Assembly: GCA_964016885.1 (NCBI GenBank)
Contig: OZ024741.1
Span: forward strand, 347,820,001 to 347,884,000
DNA from: Eledone cirrhosa
Taxonomy: Eukaryota
Direction: 5' to 3'
Length of the DNA stretch: 64,000 nt
Shown here: positions 2,354 to 60,560 of the stretch, piece by piece
Position numbering within the stretch: position 1 is the stretch's first letter
Layout: each line of letters begins with the position of its first letter
Made by a program: the position numbers and the translations under genes
Notes under the pieces: model-generated
The model's database searches: none
Told to the model about the DNA's origin: nothing
Seen by the model: only the letters and a program-made list of their open reading frames with translations

Positions 2354-4586
2354 AACACACACACACACACACACACACACACACACACACACACACATAC
2401 ACATACACACACACACACACACACATATATATACATATATATATATATATATATATATATATATATATATATATATATATATATATATATATATGTATCT
2501 ATGAAAGACGTAAAATAAGAAAATTATAAAGATTAACTTACTAACATTTCACTCCAACTAGTTAGTTTCTGAAAGGGAATAAACCTGGTTTCGGAATGGA
2601 ACACATGGAGAAGGCCTTTCGTCATCAGGAAGTCTGTTCTCAGCTAAGTTCCCAGGTGATGCGTGGGCACAGGGAACTTATACAAAAATAATTCAGTGGA
2701 TGGAAAAAGCAAGCGCGAGGAGTGTGCTGTTAAGAAGACAGTAGCTGAACTATTACTATGAACTATAGTAGCAGTTTAGGCAAATTTTTGCGCAACAAAA
2801 TTATTTGGAGATAATTATAAAGAATTAGTATATCTACCAACATATATATACAGATGCATACCTATGCTAGCAAATATATAGGTCTTGTCTTAGTAACTTT
2901 GTGGTTCAATGCAAGGAGATGCAGAACAATTATATGAAAGACGTAAAACAAGACATTTTATAAAAATTAACATACTTACTAAAATTTCACTCCAACTAAT
3001 TAGTTTCTGAAAGGGAATAAACATGGTTTCCGAATGGAACACATGGAGAAGGCCTTTCGTCATCAGCAAGTCTGTTCTCAGCTAAGTTCCCAGGCGATGC
3101 GTGGACACAGGGAACTTATACAAAAATAATTCAGTGGATGGAAAAAAGCAAGCGTGGACTAAATTCCAAGACATTGAAAAAATCACTGCCTACTTGGTCT
3201 GTGGCAAATTCAAAAGAATATCTCACGTGACATCGAGGTTAATCAGTGAGGAGTGGTGTGTTGAAAAGGCAGTAGCCGAACTATTACTATGAACTATAGT
3301 TTTATTTTTGAACTTATGCTATTACTTATGAACTTATACTATTTATTTTTGTATAAGTGCCCTGTGTCACGCATCGCCTGGGAACTTAGCTGAGAAAGGA
3401 CTTCCTGATGACAAAAGGCCTTCTCCATGTGTTCCATTCGGAAACCATGTTTATTCCTTTTCAGAAACTAATTAGTTGGAGTGAAATTTTAGTAAGTAAG
3501 TTAATTTTTATAATTTTCTTATTTTATGTCTTTCATATAATTGTTCTGCAACCCCTTGCATAAAACCACAAAGTTACTAAGACAAAACCTATATATTTGC
3601 TAGCATAGGTATGCATCTGTATATATATGTTGGTAGATATACTAATTATTTATATATATATATATATATATATATATATATATATATATATAAAGTATTA
3701 GTATATCTACCAACATATTGATACAGATGGATACTTACGCTAGCAAAGATATAGGTTTTGTCTTAGTAACCTTGTGGTTCAGTACAAAAAGATGTAAAAA
3801 AATTATATGAAAGACGAAAAATAAGAAAATTATAGTAATGAACTTACTTACTTAAATTTCACTCCAACTAATTAGTTTCTGAAAGGGGATATACATTGAC
3901 TTCAAATGGAGACCATGGAGAATCCTTTCTTCATCAGGGAGACATCCTGGCAATATGCGGACACATGGAACTTATACAAAAATAATTCAGTGGATGGAAA
4001 AAAAGCAAGCGCGGACTAAATTCCAAGACATTGAAAATTTCACTGCCTTCCTGGTCAGTGGCAAATTCAAAAGAATTTATCACGTGACATCGAGGTTAAT
4101 CAGTTAGGAGTGGGATGTTAAAATGACAGTAGCGAAACTAATACTATGAACCATAGTAGTAATTCAGGCAAATTTTTGCTCAACAAAATAATTTGGAGAT
4201 AATTATGAAGAATTAGTATATCTAGCAACATATTTATACAGATGTATACTTAGGCTAGCCCAGATATAGGTTTTGTCTTAGTAACTTTGTGGTTCAATAC
4301 AAAAAGATGTAGACAAATTATATAAAAGACGTAAAATAAGAAAATTATAGTAATGAACTTACTTAAATTTCACTCTAACTAATTAGTCTCAGAAAGAGGA
4401 TATACATAGTCTTCATTGGTCAGTCAATTGTAAACATTGAGGACCAAATGAATTAACGGTATAGATATAAAAGACATAGAAGCGAAAACCAACCAAACAG
4501 TGAGTGTGTCTGTTTTTAATTCTGGCAATATTATTACAACAATATGACCCCCCAAGTATAACAATATATATATATATATATATATA

Positions 4587-5025
4587 ATGTAGGAGGTGAG
4601 TTTTATTGTAGTACAATAAAGCAATGCAGATATCGGATAAGAAGCACTCTACAGTTTGTAGGACTGGAGTATACATAATATAAGATCAAAAGATGGTTAA
4701 AGGAGTTCCATGTATTTTATTATGCGCATTTCAAAAACAAACATCATCATGCAATAATATTTGTGTTTTCATCAGATAAAATAGGAGAACATAATATGAA
4801 GGCTAAAAAACACTTGTGGATAGTGCAGTTTTAAATCAACATATCATATATATGATATGTTGATTTAAAACTGCACTATCCACAAGTGTTTTTTAGCCTT
4901 CATATTATGTTCTCCTGTTTTATCTGATGAAAACACAAATATTATTGCATGATGATGTTTGTTTTTGAAATGCGCATAATAAAATACATGGAACTCCTTT
5001 AACCATCTTTTGATCTTATATTATA
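4587..5025. repeat. Near-perfect palindrome (centre 4849/4850, ~175 bp arms) of a PLE 3' end; left arm carries an extra ~90 bp tail
   Basis: 4677-4849 is the reverse complement of 4850-5025. The same sequence forms the 3' end of the PLE at 7120-9620 (9445-9620). Confidence 0.92.
4916..4986 (+). ncRNA. Type I hammerhead ribozyme with palindromic stem III (mirror copy on minus strand 4713-4783)
   Basis: UGUUUUAU-CUGAUGA-long stem II-GAAA-UGCGCA-UA|AUAAAAUA. Full conserved core and an 8-bp stem I. Confidence 0.88.
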
Positions 5026-5842
5026 TATATATATATATATATATATATATATAGGACGTAAAAGAAGAAAATTATAGTAATTATCTTACTTACTTAAATT
5101 TCACTCCAACTAATTAGTTTCTGAAAGGGGATATACATAGTTCCCAAATGGAGGCTATGGAGAATCCTTTCTTCATCAGGGAGACATTATCGGCTAAGAT
5201 TCCTGGGAATACGCGGACACACGGAACTTATACAAAAATAATTTAGTGGATGGAAAAAAGCAAGCGCGGACTAAATTCCAAGACATTGAAAATTTCACAG
5301 CCATCCTGGTCAGTGGCAAATTCAAAAGAATCAATCACGTGACATCGAGGTTAATTAGTGAGCAATAGGGTTTTAAAAAGACAGTAGCCAAACTAATAAT
5401 ATGAACCATAGTAATAATTCAGGCAAATTTTTGCTCAACAAAATAATTTGGAAATAATTATAAAGAATTAGTATATCTACCAACATATTTATACAGATGT
5501 ATACTTAGGCTAGCAAAGATATAGGTTTTGTCTTAGTAACTTTGTGATTCAATACAAAAAGATGTAGACAAATTATATAAAAGACGTAAAATAAGAAAAT
5601 TATAGTAATGAACTTACTTAAATTTCACTCCAAATAATTAGTTTCTGAAACGGTATATACATAGTCTTCATTGGTCAGTCAATGGTAAACATTTAGGACC
5701 AAATGAATTAACTATGTAGATATAAAAGATACAGAAGCGAAAACCAACCAAAAAGTGAGTGTGTCTGTTTTTAATTCTGGCAATATTATTACAACAATAT
5801 AACCCTCCCCAAGTATAACAATATAACAATATATATATATAT

Positions 5843-6412
5843 GGTGGCTGCCAACTCGTTTTCGAGTACGGCCACTACTTTATATCCATATAGGAGAACC
5901 CCTACCAATGCAGTGAACGAGTGTGACCTTTTAGTCCAGCCAGCGACTTGAAAACTCTGGTACAAACACTACACTTGTGACAAATATTGACACATAGTGC
6001 TGGGGCCATGGTACCCTGTGACGACAAGTGCAGAGAGATCTCCAGATATAAAGCAATGCCTGTGCCGTGAAGCTTTTATAGTGAGCAAAGGCACTGCACA
6101 AAGCCAGTCCCACTCTCTTAACCAAGATGATATTTACCAAAAAGAAGAACAAGTCAACATCATTGGATACCATCAGAGTTGCAGGTGTTATATCAGAGTT
6201 TTCCTTCTCCTAGAATTCTGCCTTGACAAAGGCTAATGGGTCATCTCTCCCGGTGATTTTGGATGGCCATTGACTCTTAAGAGCTCCTTTGCCCTTTGAC
6301 AGGTCTTGTTTTTAGTCCTGCAGGATGTCCAAAGTCACCCTCCTCACCAAGAAACCTTGGTGGGGTTGCCAGTTTAGTCGCCAACGACCCGACCATGGGA
6401 CAGGTTGTACTG
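5843..6412 (-). mobile_element. RTE-type LINE 5' UTR fragment
   Basis: GC-richer island with minus-strand GGAGAAGGAAAACTCTGA, a motif I associate with RTE 5' UTRs. A homologue lies in the opposite orientation at 62780-62960. Confidence 0.5.
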
Positions 6413-58704: not shown

Positions 58705-59577
58705 TATAGAATTCACAAGAATCAAAGCTATGTTCAAAGCATTTATTCACTTACAATTGTTTCACCCAAACCCAGGCTTGGAGTCTTCGGGGCATTTTTC
58801 AATGTTTGTACACATAATTGACCTCCTTTCCAACGCAAGAGACATACAGATACATATATATATATATATATTGATGTCCAGTGGAGTGACATATATTATA
58901 CTATATTATTTCTGCATAGCAATTCAAATTCAAAATCAAAATCAAAATTAAAATTAAAACAAAATTAAATTAAAATACATTCGGCAGTTAACACAGATAA
59001 TGCAAGAGGATAGTTTGTTAGTCAGATGTAGTAGTTAGTGTATGCGTTAGTTACACGTGGGGCATGCAAGTGTGTCTCATTTATATATGATTATTGTTTG
59101 GCAGGGTGTTACATGTAATACAAGCACTTTAAGCGGGTAAGTAAGAGTATTATGGTGGATGTAGTGGTAAGGTATTTTTTGTATATAATAAAAAAAAGTA
59201 TGTGTGCAGAAAAATAAAAAATAAAAAGGAGAAGCAAAAGAAAGTTATGGTTTTTGTATCCACCACCATTTTCACATTCAGGAAAAGTAATAAATAGTTT
59301 TTACATACATCACATAAGTAACGATGGTTCCGTATTGGATGTTTGATGCATTAAATTAAATTATTTTAGCTTATTGCAGCTCAGTGTTATTTAATCCAAA
59401 TTTATAGAATAAGTTGATTCTGCTGCGGGAATTTACAGCAGTTTTTTATCCAGAAGTATGTGTGTAATTAAGGGGAGTTAATGCGTAAGCGGAGGTAGTT
59501 ACCAAGCCTAGGTTTGGATGAAACAATTGTAGGTGAATAAATGCTTTGAACATAGCTTTGATTCTTGTGAATTATAT
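58705..59577. mobile_element. ~870 bp cassette with ~75 bp terminal inverted repeats containing a hammerhead-like motif (58748-58797, minus)
   Basis: 58705-58780 mirrors 59502-59577. Minus strand CCGAAGA-C UCCAAGCC UG GGUUUGGG U-GAAA-CAAUUG-UA. Confidence 0.7.
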
Positions 59578-60121
59578 ATATATATATATATATATATATA
59601 TATATATATATATATATATACGATGTGAATTAGGTTGTCAAACACGATTTTTTAATATATGTGGATGACCAAGCTGCTAATACTGCCAAGAGAATACACA
59701 CCCACTAAATGGTTTCACTCTTCTTCTATCTGCTTTACTCAGCTACTACATATTGTCATTTTTTGTGGACAAAATGTAGTAACAGATGTTGACCAAGAAG
59801 AGAATGTACAGAATATAAAAATTAGTGATTTATGAGTTACCAGAATATGTCACGAAGAGTTTGTCGAAGCAAGCAATAACAAATAATAGTGATAAAATGA
59901 AAGATTATGTAGTAGGTGGTTTCAATTGGCAATACTGGCAACATAACCACCCGCAAACAAACAAATATATATATATATATATATGCGTGAGTGTGTGTGT
60001 GTGTGTGTGTGTATGTATATATATATATATATGTGTGTGTGTGTGTGAGTGTGTGTATATATATATATATGTATGTACTTATGTATATATATATATATAT
60101 ATAAATATGTATATATATATA

Positions 60122-60560
60122 AACGTTTGTATATGTATAATAAAGCCAAACCAATGCAGGTATGGACATAGAATAAAGAATGCAAATGCAAAAGATATTG
60201 TTGACAATTAGTCTTTTACCTTAGATTTATTTAAATGTCCTTAATTTTCGAGATAATATCTCTTCTTCGGGGGGAAGTAAAGCGGTTAAACCAGTGTTCT
60301 AAATAGCTTGCCAAGCCATGACTTGGCAAGCTATTTAGAACACTGGTTTAACCGCTTTACTTCCCTCCGAAGAAGAGATATTATCTCGAAAATTAAGGAC
60401 ATTTAAATAAATCCAAGGTAAAAGACTAATTGTCAACAATATCTTTTGCATTTGCATTCTTTATTCTATGTCCATACGTGCATTGTTTTGGATTTATTAT
60501 ACATATACAAACGTTGATACCTCATTACACAATGCTTCAAGTGAACTATAACTTCCTCCT
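60122..60560. repeat. Near-perfect palindrome (centre ~60318, ~195 bp arms) with degenerate hammerhead CCGAAGA-A-GAGAUauuAUCUC-GAAA; right arm has a ~45 bp tail
   Basis: 60122-60318 is the reverse complement of 60319-60515. (TA)n flanks. Confidence 0.88.

What the first reader, a model, noticed from the sequence alone, without database searches (positions are those of the whole stretch)
2500..60560. Hammerhead fold-back cassettes in (TA)n all share one polarity (3' ends outward, one arm longer)
Seen: inverted pairs at 2815-3650, 4587-5025, 5055-6985, 16838-18091, 18131-18546, 20110-21116, 56309-57700, 58705-59577 and 60122-60560, from several dissimilar sequence families. Wherever a hammerhead core gives orientation, the left arm is antisense and the right arm sense, and both run out into (TA)n. 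One arm usually has 35-90 extra terminal bases. Known: PLEs carry hammerheads in pLTRs and often have an inverted 5' pLTR. Inference: because (TA)n is self-complementary, both ends of a cut can prime cDNA from the RNA 3' region, and the products join head-to-head. The result is ORF-less ribozyme hairpin cassettes that give long dsRNA from either strand (possible siRNA or ADAR substrates) and may be mobilised in trans.
Basis: partly seen in the sequence, partly recalled or inferred. Interest (0 to 1): 0.72.

Follow-up and report, generated by a model that had tools for sequence, protein, structure and literature searches.

The report
Two-ended Penelope insertions in TA repeats
These mirror-image cassettes are real and are the cut-short ends of Penelope-like jumping genes set head to head in TA repeats, a layout already described, but genome-wide they pair one long with one short end almost without exception and pile up at one turning point, which likely means both broken DNA ends start a copy and short copies run off the predicted start of the element's RNA.

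Summary
All nine inverted pairs are in the sequence, and the polarity holds genome-wide: 91 of 91 neighbouring opposite-strand arms of four families are head-to-head. They are not a separate kind of ORF-less cassette. Five of eight arm families were traced to 3' ends of RT-bearing Penelope-like elements (PLEs); two are tandem hammerhead units. The window also holds an intact Hydra-type ORF (54066-56279, minus) with many 100% identical copies. Head-to-head inversion, one-sided tail and (TA)n targeting are published PLE anatomy. Beyond what I found in print: 51 of 52 resolved pairs join one long and one short end; both arms carry the same subfamily variants; some partners are tail-only, which a single fold-back cannot make; spacerless centres pile up at one site per family, a predicted transcription start. 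Best reading: both target ends prime, at two fixed RNA sites, and short copies run off the RNA 5' end. Copying of whole cassettes as units is not supported. dsRNA, siRNA and editing are untested. Two pairs lack a hammerhead; 5055-6985 spans two insertions. The scan has noted this anatomy many times on other DNA of this genome.

The parts
404..2355 (-). 5'-truncated Hydra-type PLE remnant; its 3' end is family C (altered core at about 472), short end at 404
2496..3650 (.). Family A head-to-head insertion: antisense partial tandem (cores 2628, 3066; short end about 2496) and sense arm 3343-3650 (core 3407; long end, tail about 115 nt)
3689..4563 (-). Family A antisense array (long end at 3689) joined to a 150-nt piece of another repeat that runs into (TA)n
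4587..5021 (.). Family B spacerless palindrome: tail 4587-4677 (91 nt), arms 4678-4849/4850-5021, type I hammerhead cores 4775 (-) and 4924 (+); 3' end of a Hydra-type PLE
5054..5828 (-). Second family A antisense array (short end; core 5179) with the same junction as 3689-4563, 90.6% identical to it
6453..6985 (.). Separate family A insertion: antisense stub 6453-6530 and sense arm ending at 6985; both ends short
7095..9615 (+). Hydra-type PLE remnant of family B: inverted tail-only stub at 7095-7113, broken ORF 7273-8358, 3' UTR, hammerhead 9514, short end
16837..18089 (.). Family C head-to-head pair, arms 16837-17362/17474-18000, tail 18001-18089 (89 nt), altered cores
18132..18542 (.). Family D spacerless palindrome, tail 37 nt on the left, no hammerhead; 3' end of an RT element with DKG and CX4CXXC motifs (Neptune-like by motif)
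20048..21116 (.). Family E head-to-head insertion of a tandem hammerhead unit; cores about 20272 (-), 20555 (+), 20976 (+); left arm longer
52378..56279 (-). Near full-length Hydra-type PLE: intact 737-aa ORF 56279-54066, 3' UTR, hammerhead at 52566, long end at 52378; (TA)n on both sides, no inverted arm
56308..57699 (.). Family F head-to-head pair, arms 56390-56877/57000-57699, tail 82 nt on the left, cores 56495 (-) and 57594 (+); an unrelated repeat of about 190 nt sits at 57141-57335
58543..59572 (.). Family G pair, 71-bp arms 58711-58781/59502-59572, 168 extra nt on the left, no intact hammerhead; parent not identified
60122..60559 (.). Family H spacerless palindrome, tail 44 nt on the right, altered cores at about 60270 (-) and 60367 (+); 3' end of a non-Hydra RT + GIY-YIG PLE

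Best explanation
The cassettes are 5'-truncated 3' ends of several Penelope-like retroelement families, lying head to head in (TA)n with one arm ending at the family's short site and the other at its long site, and they are likely made when both ends of the cut target prime reverse transcription on sense RNA from one source, with the spacerless ones likely arising when both copies run off the predicted transcription start. Shown: the arms are element 3' ends; polarity; long-plus-short pairing; shared source of the two arms; one turning-point hot spot per family; a few bases of microhomology at junctions. Inferred: a dimeric RT-endonuclease cuts (TA)n; one end primes at the long site and one at the short site, so the sequence between them (the tail) appears once; the two cDNA 3' ends are joined by microhomology, most easily at a small natural palindrome; RNA that starts in the upstream pLTR limits both cDNAs to 170-200 nt and gives fixed-size palindromes. 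The hammerhead is a passenger. Read-through RNA would fold into long dsRNA.
For: ORFs upstream of arms on the same strand: B, C, F (68% identical ORF), H and D. Polarity 58 of 58 plus 33 of 33. Ends: of 58 positional pairs 52 were resolved, 51 long+short, 1 short+short, 0 long+long (p about 1e-14 against free choice). Shared source: in family B pairs with spacers over 130 nt, recurrent variants were mirrored in 24 of 25 cases and arms differed by 0.6% within pairs against 3.7% between pairs. Two RNA primings: tail-only partners that share no sequence with the other arm at L235, L256, L400 and window 7095-9615; the arm that reaches further upstream is the short-end arm in 19 and the tail arm in 8 of 27 pairs. 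Hot spot: 12 of 30 B arms stop 164-183 nt from the short end, 5 sooner, 13 spread to over 1500; both arms at the hot spot in 28 pairs, neither in 26, one only in 4. In D a TATA-like word lies about 31 nt before an initiator-like TCA at the hot spot, with E-box-like and CCAAT words further up (by eye). In vitro a PLE protein cuts and extends both strands, starts at two sites that bound the tail, and is predicted to be a dimer (PMC11167929).
Against: The transcription start is inferred from motifs only; B, H and the active family show only an initiator-like TCA and no clear TATA. One of 5 resolved full-length inverted insertions is long+long, and 2 of 10 loci have no inverted arm; the window has a short+short case (6453-6985). 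Family H gives no shared-source signal in long-spacer pairs (3.4% within, 3.7% between) and the D part crashed. How two cDNAs copy the same RNA stretch (displacement or two RNAs) is not resolved. PMC11167929 saw no difference in start site between strands. Concordant spacerless centres also fit a snap-back, which may make some of them. Positional lists cover only the first part of contig C1.
Confidence: 0.7

Rival explanations
1. One cDNA folds back on itself and copies itself, so the second arm is DNA-templated (the self-priming view of PMC3846280, which placed it on an antisense template).
For: Spacerless centres sit on small natural palindromes in B, D and H; both arms stop together; mirrored variants.
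Against: Tail-only partners cannot be copied from the other arm; either arm may be the longer; the central base flips relative to the tail even within a subfamily; single arms also join (TA)n directly at the same hot spot.
Confidence: 0.15
2. The palindromes are non-autonomous elements transcribed and reinserted as whole units by a PLE enzyme in trans.
For: Whole cassettes B, H and D recur at full length with near-identical centres at dozens of loci among the 40 best-scoring candidates each.
Against: Those lists were selected for likeness. In positional lists centres vary (B spacers of 4-30 nt in 13 pairs, 128-5929 in 15). Seven D variants shared by 4-7 loci are mirrored in 41 of 41 cases, while private changes are mostly on one arm; unit copying would keep them on one arm. 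One H variant on 5 short arms only is the single hint the other way.
Confidence: 0.08
3. Hammerhead self-cleavage sets the ends or centres of the cassettes.
For: Most families carry a type I core 40-130 nt from the short end.
Against: Centres lie upstream of the core (B 74 nt, H about 50 nt, active family about 86 nt), not at the cleavage site; D has no core yet obeys every rule; cleavage was dispensable in vitro (PMC11167929).
Confidence: 0.04
4. The palindromes are fold-back artefacts of long reads or of assembly.
For: Spacerless palindromes are a known read artefact (own knowledge); no listed contig bridges the 4850 centre by 31 letters on both sides.
Against: Arms differ by substitutions, stop at family-specific ends and have different flanks; raw paired Illumina reads of another sample show an inverted arm joined at the B hot spot (19 reads, median 85 loose letters) and short-read contigs cross the centre.
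Confidence: 0.01

Closest known systems
Insertion structure of endonuclease-bearing PLEs (PMC8557442 passages and Fig. 2 legend; PMC3846280 passages)
   Same: Partial tandems, an inverted 5'-truncated copy, head-to-head as the commonest form, palindromes at the junction, a tail often at one end only.
   Different: Tails here are 37-168 nt against 30-40 nt; pairing of long with short ends is counted (51 of 52); many events consist of two bare pLTR-sized arms; my evidence favours two primings on sense RNA over self-priming on an antisense template.
Hydra clade of PLEs, e.g. Hydra-1_Obim (PMC8557442 section 11 and supplement rows)
   Same: RT followed by GIY-YIG, RW(K/R), DKT, CxCX5C linker, no CCHH, type I hammerhead, (TA)n target.
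   Different: Unit length 4011 nt against generally under 3 kb; a currently young family with many identical intact ORFs; Hydra-1_Obim is listed with no pLTR. No tree was built.
PAc (Poseidon) in vitro mechanism (PMC11167929, parts 1-2 of 4 read)
   Same: Both strands cut and extended, two internal start sites bounding the tail, AT-rich target, hammerhead dispensable, predicted dimer.
   Different: There the start site did not depend on the strand; here the two ends of one insertion almost always differ.
Animal non-LTR retrozymes (10.64898/2026.07.22.740005, part 1 of 5 and passages)
   Same: Families A and E, and a 310-nt family elsewhere, are tandem units each with a type I hammerhead.
   Different: Here the arrays show the PLE integration signature (head-to-head, long+short ends, (TA)n); my word search of that preprint found no mention of inverted or palindromic arrays.
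L1 twin priming (recalled, not read)
   Same: Both target ends prime on RNA and the cDNAs are joined by microhomology, giving an inversion.
   Different: In L1 the second primer lands at variable internal sites and the arms do not overlap; here both sites are fixed and the arms usually overlap.

Membership tests
Hydra-clade PLE (window ORF 54066-56279) | Single ORF with RT and C-terminal GIY-YIG-type endonuclease | tested here: inconclusive
   Pfam gave no hit; by eye the protein follows the Hydra alignment blocks of the supplement through RT, thumb and EN.
Hydra-clade PLE (window ORF 54066-56279) | RWK motif, DKT in place of DKG, CxCX5C linker, no CCHH, CxxC and CxH near the end | tested here: met
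   Translation shows RWR, DKT, CNCRDRSKC, CDLC and CKH against section 11.
Hydra-clade PLE (window ORF 54066-56279) | Canonical hammerhead near the 3' end and insertion in (TA)n | tested here: met
   Core at 52566 read by eye, family members pass the motif scan; ends run into (TA)n.
Hydra-clade PLE (window ORF 54066-56279) | Generally short (under 3 kb) | tested here: not met
   Tandem unit is 4011 nt because of a long 3' UTR; the paper says 'generally', so this is weak.
Hydra-clade PLE (window ORF 54066-56279) | Placement inside the clade in an RT tree | not tested
   Reference proteins were seen only in a supplement and were not available as inputs.
EN+ PLE insertion anatomy | Inverted 5'-truncated copy head to head with a sense copy | tested here: met
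   91 of 91; 18 of 18.
EN+ PLE insertion anatomy | Tail at one end only | tested here: met
   51 of 52 resolved pairs; lengths exceed 30-40 nt in most families.
EN+ PLE insertion anatomy | Arms belong to an RT-encoding element | tested here: met
   B, C, D, F, H; not shown for A, E, G.
EN+ PLE insertion anatomy | Target-site duplication | not testable with these tools
   Hidden by the (TA)n target.
Type I hammerhead ribozyme | CUGANGA and GAAA core with stems I-III and an NUH site | tested here: met
   A, B, E, F by motif scan; C and H have an altered core base; D and G have none; Rfam models did not reach E<=1.
Type I hammerhead ribozyme | Self-cleavage | not testable with these tools
   Needs an in vitro assay.
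Non-LTR retrozyme (families A, E) | Two or more consecutive units each with a type I hammerhead | tested here: met
   A: 2628 and 3066; E: 20555 and 20976.
Non-LTR retrozyme (families A, E) | No coding parent, and circular RNA monomers | not tested
   No upstream search was run for A or E; no RNA data.
MITE or fold-back DNA transposon | Symmetric terminal inverted repeats of one mobile unit with fixed internal sequence | tested here: not met
   Ends are asymmetric, centres vary, arms continue into retroelement ORFs.

The most novel reading that the evidence does not exclude
A dimeric Penelope RT-endonuclease primes the two ends of one cut at two obligatorily different sites of RNA from one source, and the thousands of spacerless palindromes are strong-stop products whose centres map each family's transcription start. 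The rule is shared by three PLE lineages and by hammerhead retrozyme arrays, which it marks as PLE passengers, and it seeds the genome with long perfect hairpins.
Probability: 0.45. Interest if true: 0.7.

Novelty: new variant of a known kind. Interest (0 to 1): 0.48.

Why it matters
How PLEs build their inverted copies and one-sided tail is named as open in PMC8557442 and PMC11167929. The counts here turn that into sharp predictions: two primings on sense RNA, one per site, with run-off at the RNA start. The window supplies a young family with intact, identical ORFs for an in vitro test. For annotation, such palindromes should be filed as PLE stubs, not as MITEs, microRNA precursors (Rfam weak hits) or new ribozyme genes. 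If transcribed, they would be a large pool of dsRNA; that is untested.

Tried and rejected
Rfam scan: no hammerhead family at E<=1, only microRNA-like hits on palindromes and microsatellites. Pfam missed the Hydra ORF. An apparent shared centre junction in family F was a query-edge effect. After I read B, D and H as separately mobile palindromes; positional sampling overturned that. DNA search with 4587-4760 returned nothing because common words are skipped; pattern searches replaced it. No RNA holder listed; two guessed RNA runs of another organism laid 0 contigs: no evidence on expression. A bulged hairpin at the start of the tail is visible in B, F and the active family with changing stem pairs, but my control for it was not informative (6 of 38 against 5), so it is a lead only. 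A permuted (type-SGC) hammerhead was considered for D and G after note e1-8664462 and PMC10085705 (passages): D has no CUGANGA near its arm; G was not resolved. One search crashed before the D divergence step; the piece-length column is wrong and is not used, only its distances. The loci were not delivered, so only their coordinates were used. Literature searches found no paper stating the strict long+short pairing, twin priming or run-off for PLEs; the library lacks most subscription papers, and bioRxiv supplements were closed.
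Full report
Setting. The window is G000:C2:347820001-347884000 in a 3.0-Gb animal genome. It is rich in (TA)n and holds LINE-like ORFs at 23-49 kb.

Observation. Self-comparison finds all nine inverted pairs at 90-99% arm identity. Type I hammerhead motifs lie in families A, B, E and F; C and H carry a core with one altered base; D and G have none. 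Where a core exists it is antisense on the left and sense on the right. Extra terminal bases are 37-168 nt. The 2815-3650 insertion begins near 2496. The pair 5055-6985 spans two separate insertions. Tail-to-tail neighbours across a (TA)n occur where two insertions abut (3343-3985, 51730-51827).

What the arms are. An intact 737-aa ORF at 54066-56279 (minus) has the Hydra-clade motifs listed in PMC8557442 section 11. All 61 scored genome matches are 96-100% identical, most without stops; the tandem unit is 4011 nt, with a hammerhead at unit position 3775, a short end at 3882 and a long end at 3969. Family B continues upstream into a related ORF on the same strand, C into the remnant at 404-2355, F into an ORF 68% identical to the window's. 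H continues into an RT + GIY-YIG ORF and D into an RT ORF with DKG and CX4CXXC motifs; their clades are read from motifs only. A and E are tandem hammerhead units; no parent was sought for them, and none was found for G. Exact 24-30-mers occur 1,009 to 19,627 times in the genome.

Polarity. In 80 evenly spaced 10-kb samples, 18 of 18 adjacent same-family cores on opposite strands are head-to-head. In the first 100 positional matches per family, neighbours within 6 kb are head-to-head in 28 of 28 (B), 15 of 15 (H), 15 of 15 (D) and 33 of 33 (active family). A second B list, overlapping the first, gave 31 head-to-head and 2 tail-to-tail, both between two separate head-to-head pairs. At 10 kb four further tail-to-tail neighbours appear.

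End pairing. I fetched all 58 B, H and D pairs. Six had an interrupted or odd end. Of the other 52, 51 join a long end with a short end, 1 is short+short, none long+long. In ten full-length loci of the active family five inverted insertions were resolved: 4 long+short, 1 long+long; 2 loci had no inverted arm and 3 were unresolved. Two 310-nt hammerhead arrays met in the random sample are also head-to-head in (TA)n with ends about 32 nt apart.

Are the cassettes mobile units? Searching with whole cassettes returns dozens of full-length look-alikes, which first suggested so. Three results argue against it. The centre varies and its middle base flips relative to the tail, even within one D subfamily. 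Seven D variants shared by 4-7 of 19 loci are mirrored in both arms in 41 of 41 cases, while only 7 private variants are mirrored against about 100 one-arm changes; two further D sites are mixed or one-armed, and one H variant sits on 5 short arms only. Positional lists show the same families with natural upstream sequence and long spacers. In 14 long-spacer B pairs recurrent variants are still mirrored (24 of 25) and arms differ by 0.6% within against 3.7% between pairs; H shows no such signal. So each insertion rebuilds both arms from one source.

One cDNA or two? At L235, L256, L400 and window 7095-9615 the inverted partner is only a piece of the tail, which the short-ended arm does not contain. 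That needs two primings on RNA. The arm that reaches further upstream is the short-ended one in 19 and the tailed one in 8 of 27 long-spacer pairs, several poorly resolved; well-resolved junctions overlap by 0-10 nt.

Turning points. With a pattern at the short end, 12 of 30 B arms stop 164-183 nt upstream, 5 sooner and 13 anywhere out to 1500. Nine of 33 active-family pairs have a span of 345-350 nt, placing the centre about 86 nt before the hammerhead core. Both arms stop at the hot spot in 28 of 58 pairs, neither in 26, one only in 4. The hot spots carry an initiator-like TCA; in D a TATA-like word lies about 31 nt upstream with CCAAT and E-box-like words beyond (by eye). D. virilis Penelope has an internal promoter with a mapped start (PMC2377424, passages). 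I infer run-off at the RNA 5' end; it is not measured.

Reality check. Short-read contigs cross the B centre, though by under 31 letters a side, and raw Illumina reads of another sample show inverted arms and tail pieces joined at the hot spot. No RNA data bear on expression. Whole cassettes are predicted to fold with 89-93% of bases paired, which would bury the hammerheads.

Known and new. Inversion, head-to-head polarity, junction palindromes, one-sided tail, (TA)n bias and two RT start sites are in print (PMC8557442 passages, section 11 and supplement rows; PMC3846280 passages; PMC11167929 parts 1-2 of 4). I found no paper with the strict pairing, the shared-source test or the run-off reading (searches; open-access library only). 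Earlier notes of this scan reached the same readings on other DNA of this genome; they are not independent support. Verdict: ordinary PLE anatomy, over-read as a new cassette class, with a countable rule that makes the integration mechanism testable. Interest 0.48.

Noticed in passing
window 52378-56279 (-): Intact Hydra-type PLE of a very young family; its 5' end is cut exactly at the start codon and joined to (TA)n, where other copies have a 48-nt linker from the long end.
   Followed up: yes
L074:3852-9326, L089/L230, L083: 310-nt tandem hammerhead arrays, near 100% identical units, head-to-head in (TA)n with one end about 32 nt longer.
   Followed up: partly
window 4646-4670, 56358-56384, 52434-52459: Small hairpin with a 2-nt bulge at the start of the tail in three dissimilar Hydra-type families, with changing stem pairs; a similar one in the tail of G.
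   Followed up: partly
window 3689-4585 and 5046-5842: A family A array joined head-to-head to a piece of a different repeat occurs twice with the same junction (90.6% identical); the same piece stands alone at 9642-9792.
   Followed up: no
window 23662-49091: About five head-to-tail LINE-like copies (endonuclease + RT) separated by (TCTA)n, 70-89% identical, suggesting microsatellite-targeted nesting.
   Followed up: no
   Followed up: partly
window 51730-51827 and 58129-58222: Short tail-to-tail inverted ends facing each other across a (TA)n.
   Followed up: no
window 60367-60373 and family H loci: The altered core CCGAAGA is the majority state of family H, and CAGAWGA of family C; activity unknown.
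   Followed up: partly
window 57141-57335: A common repeat of about 190 nt inserted in the right arm of F, seen in many fetched loci.
   Followed up: no
window 13126-15014: Broken non-LTR retrotransposon ORF (RT hit).
   Followed up: no
L107: A tandem array of about 275-nt units that shares a 47-nt stretch with family C.
   Followed up: no
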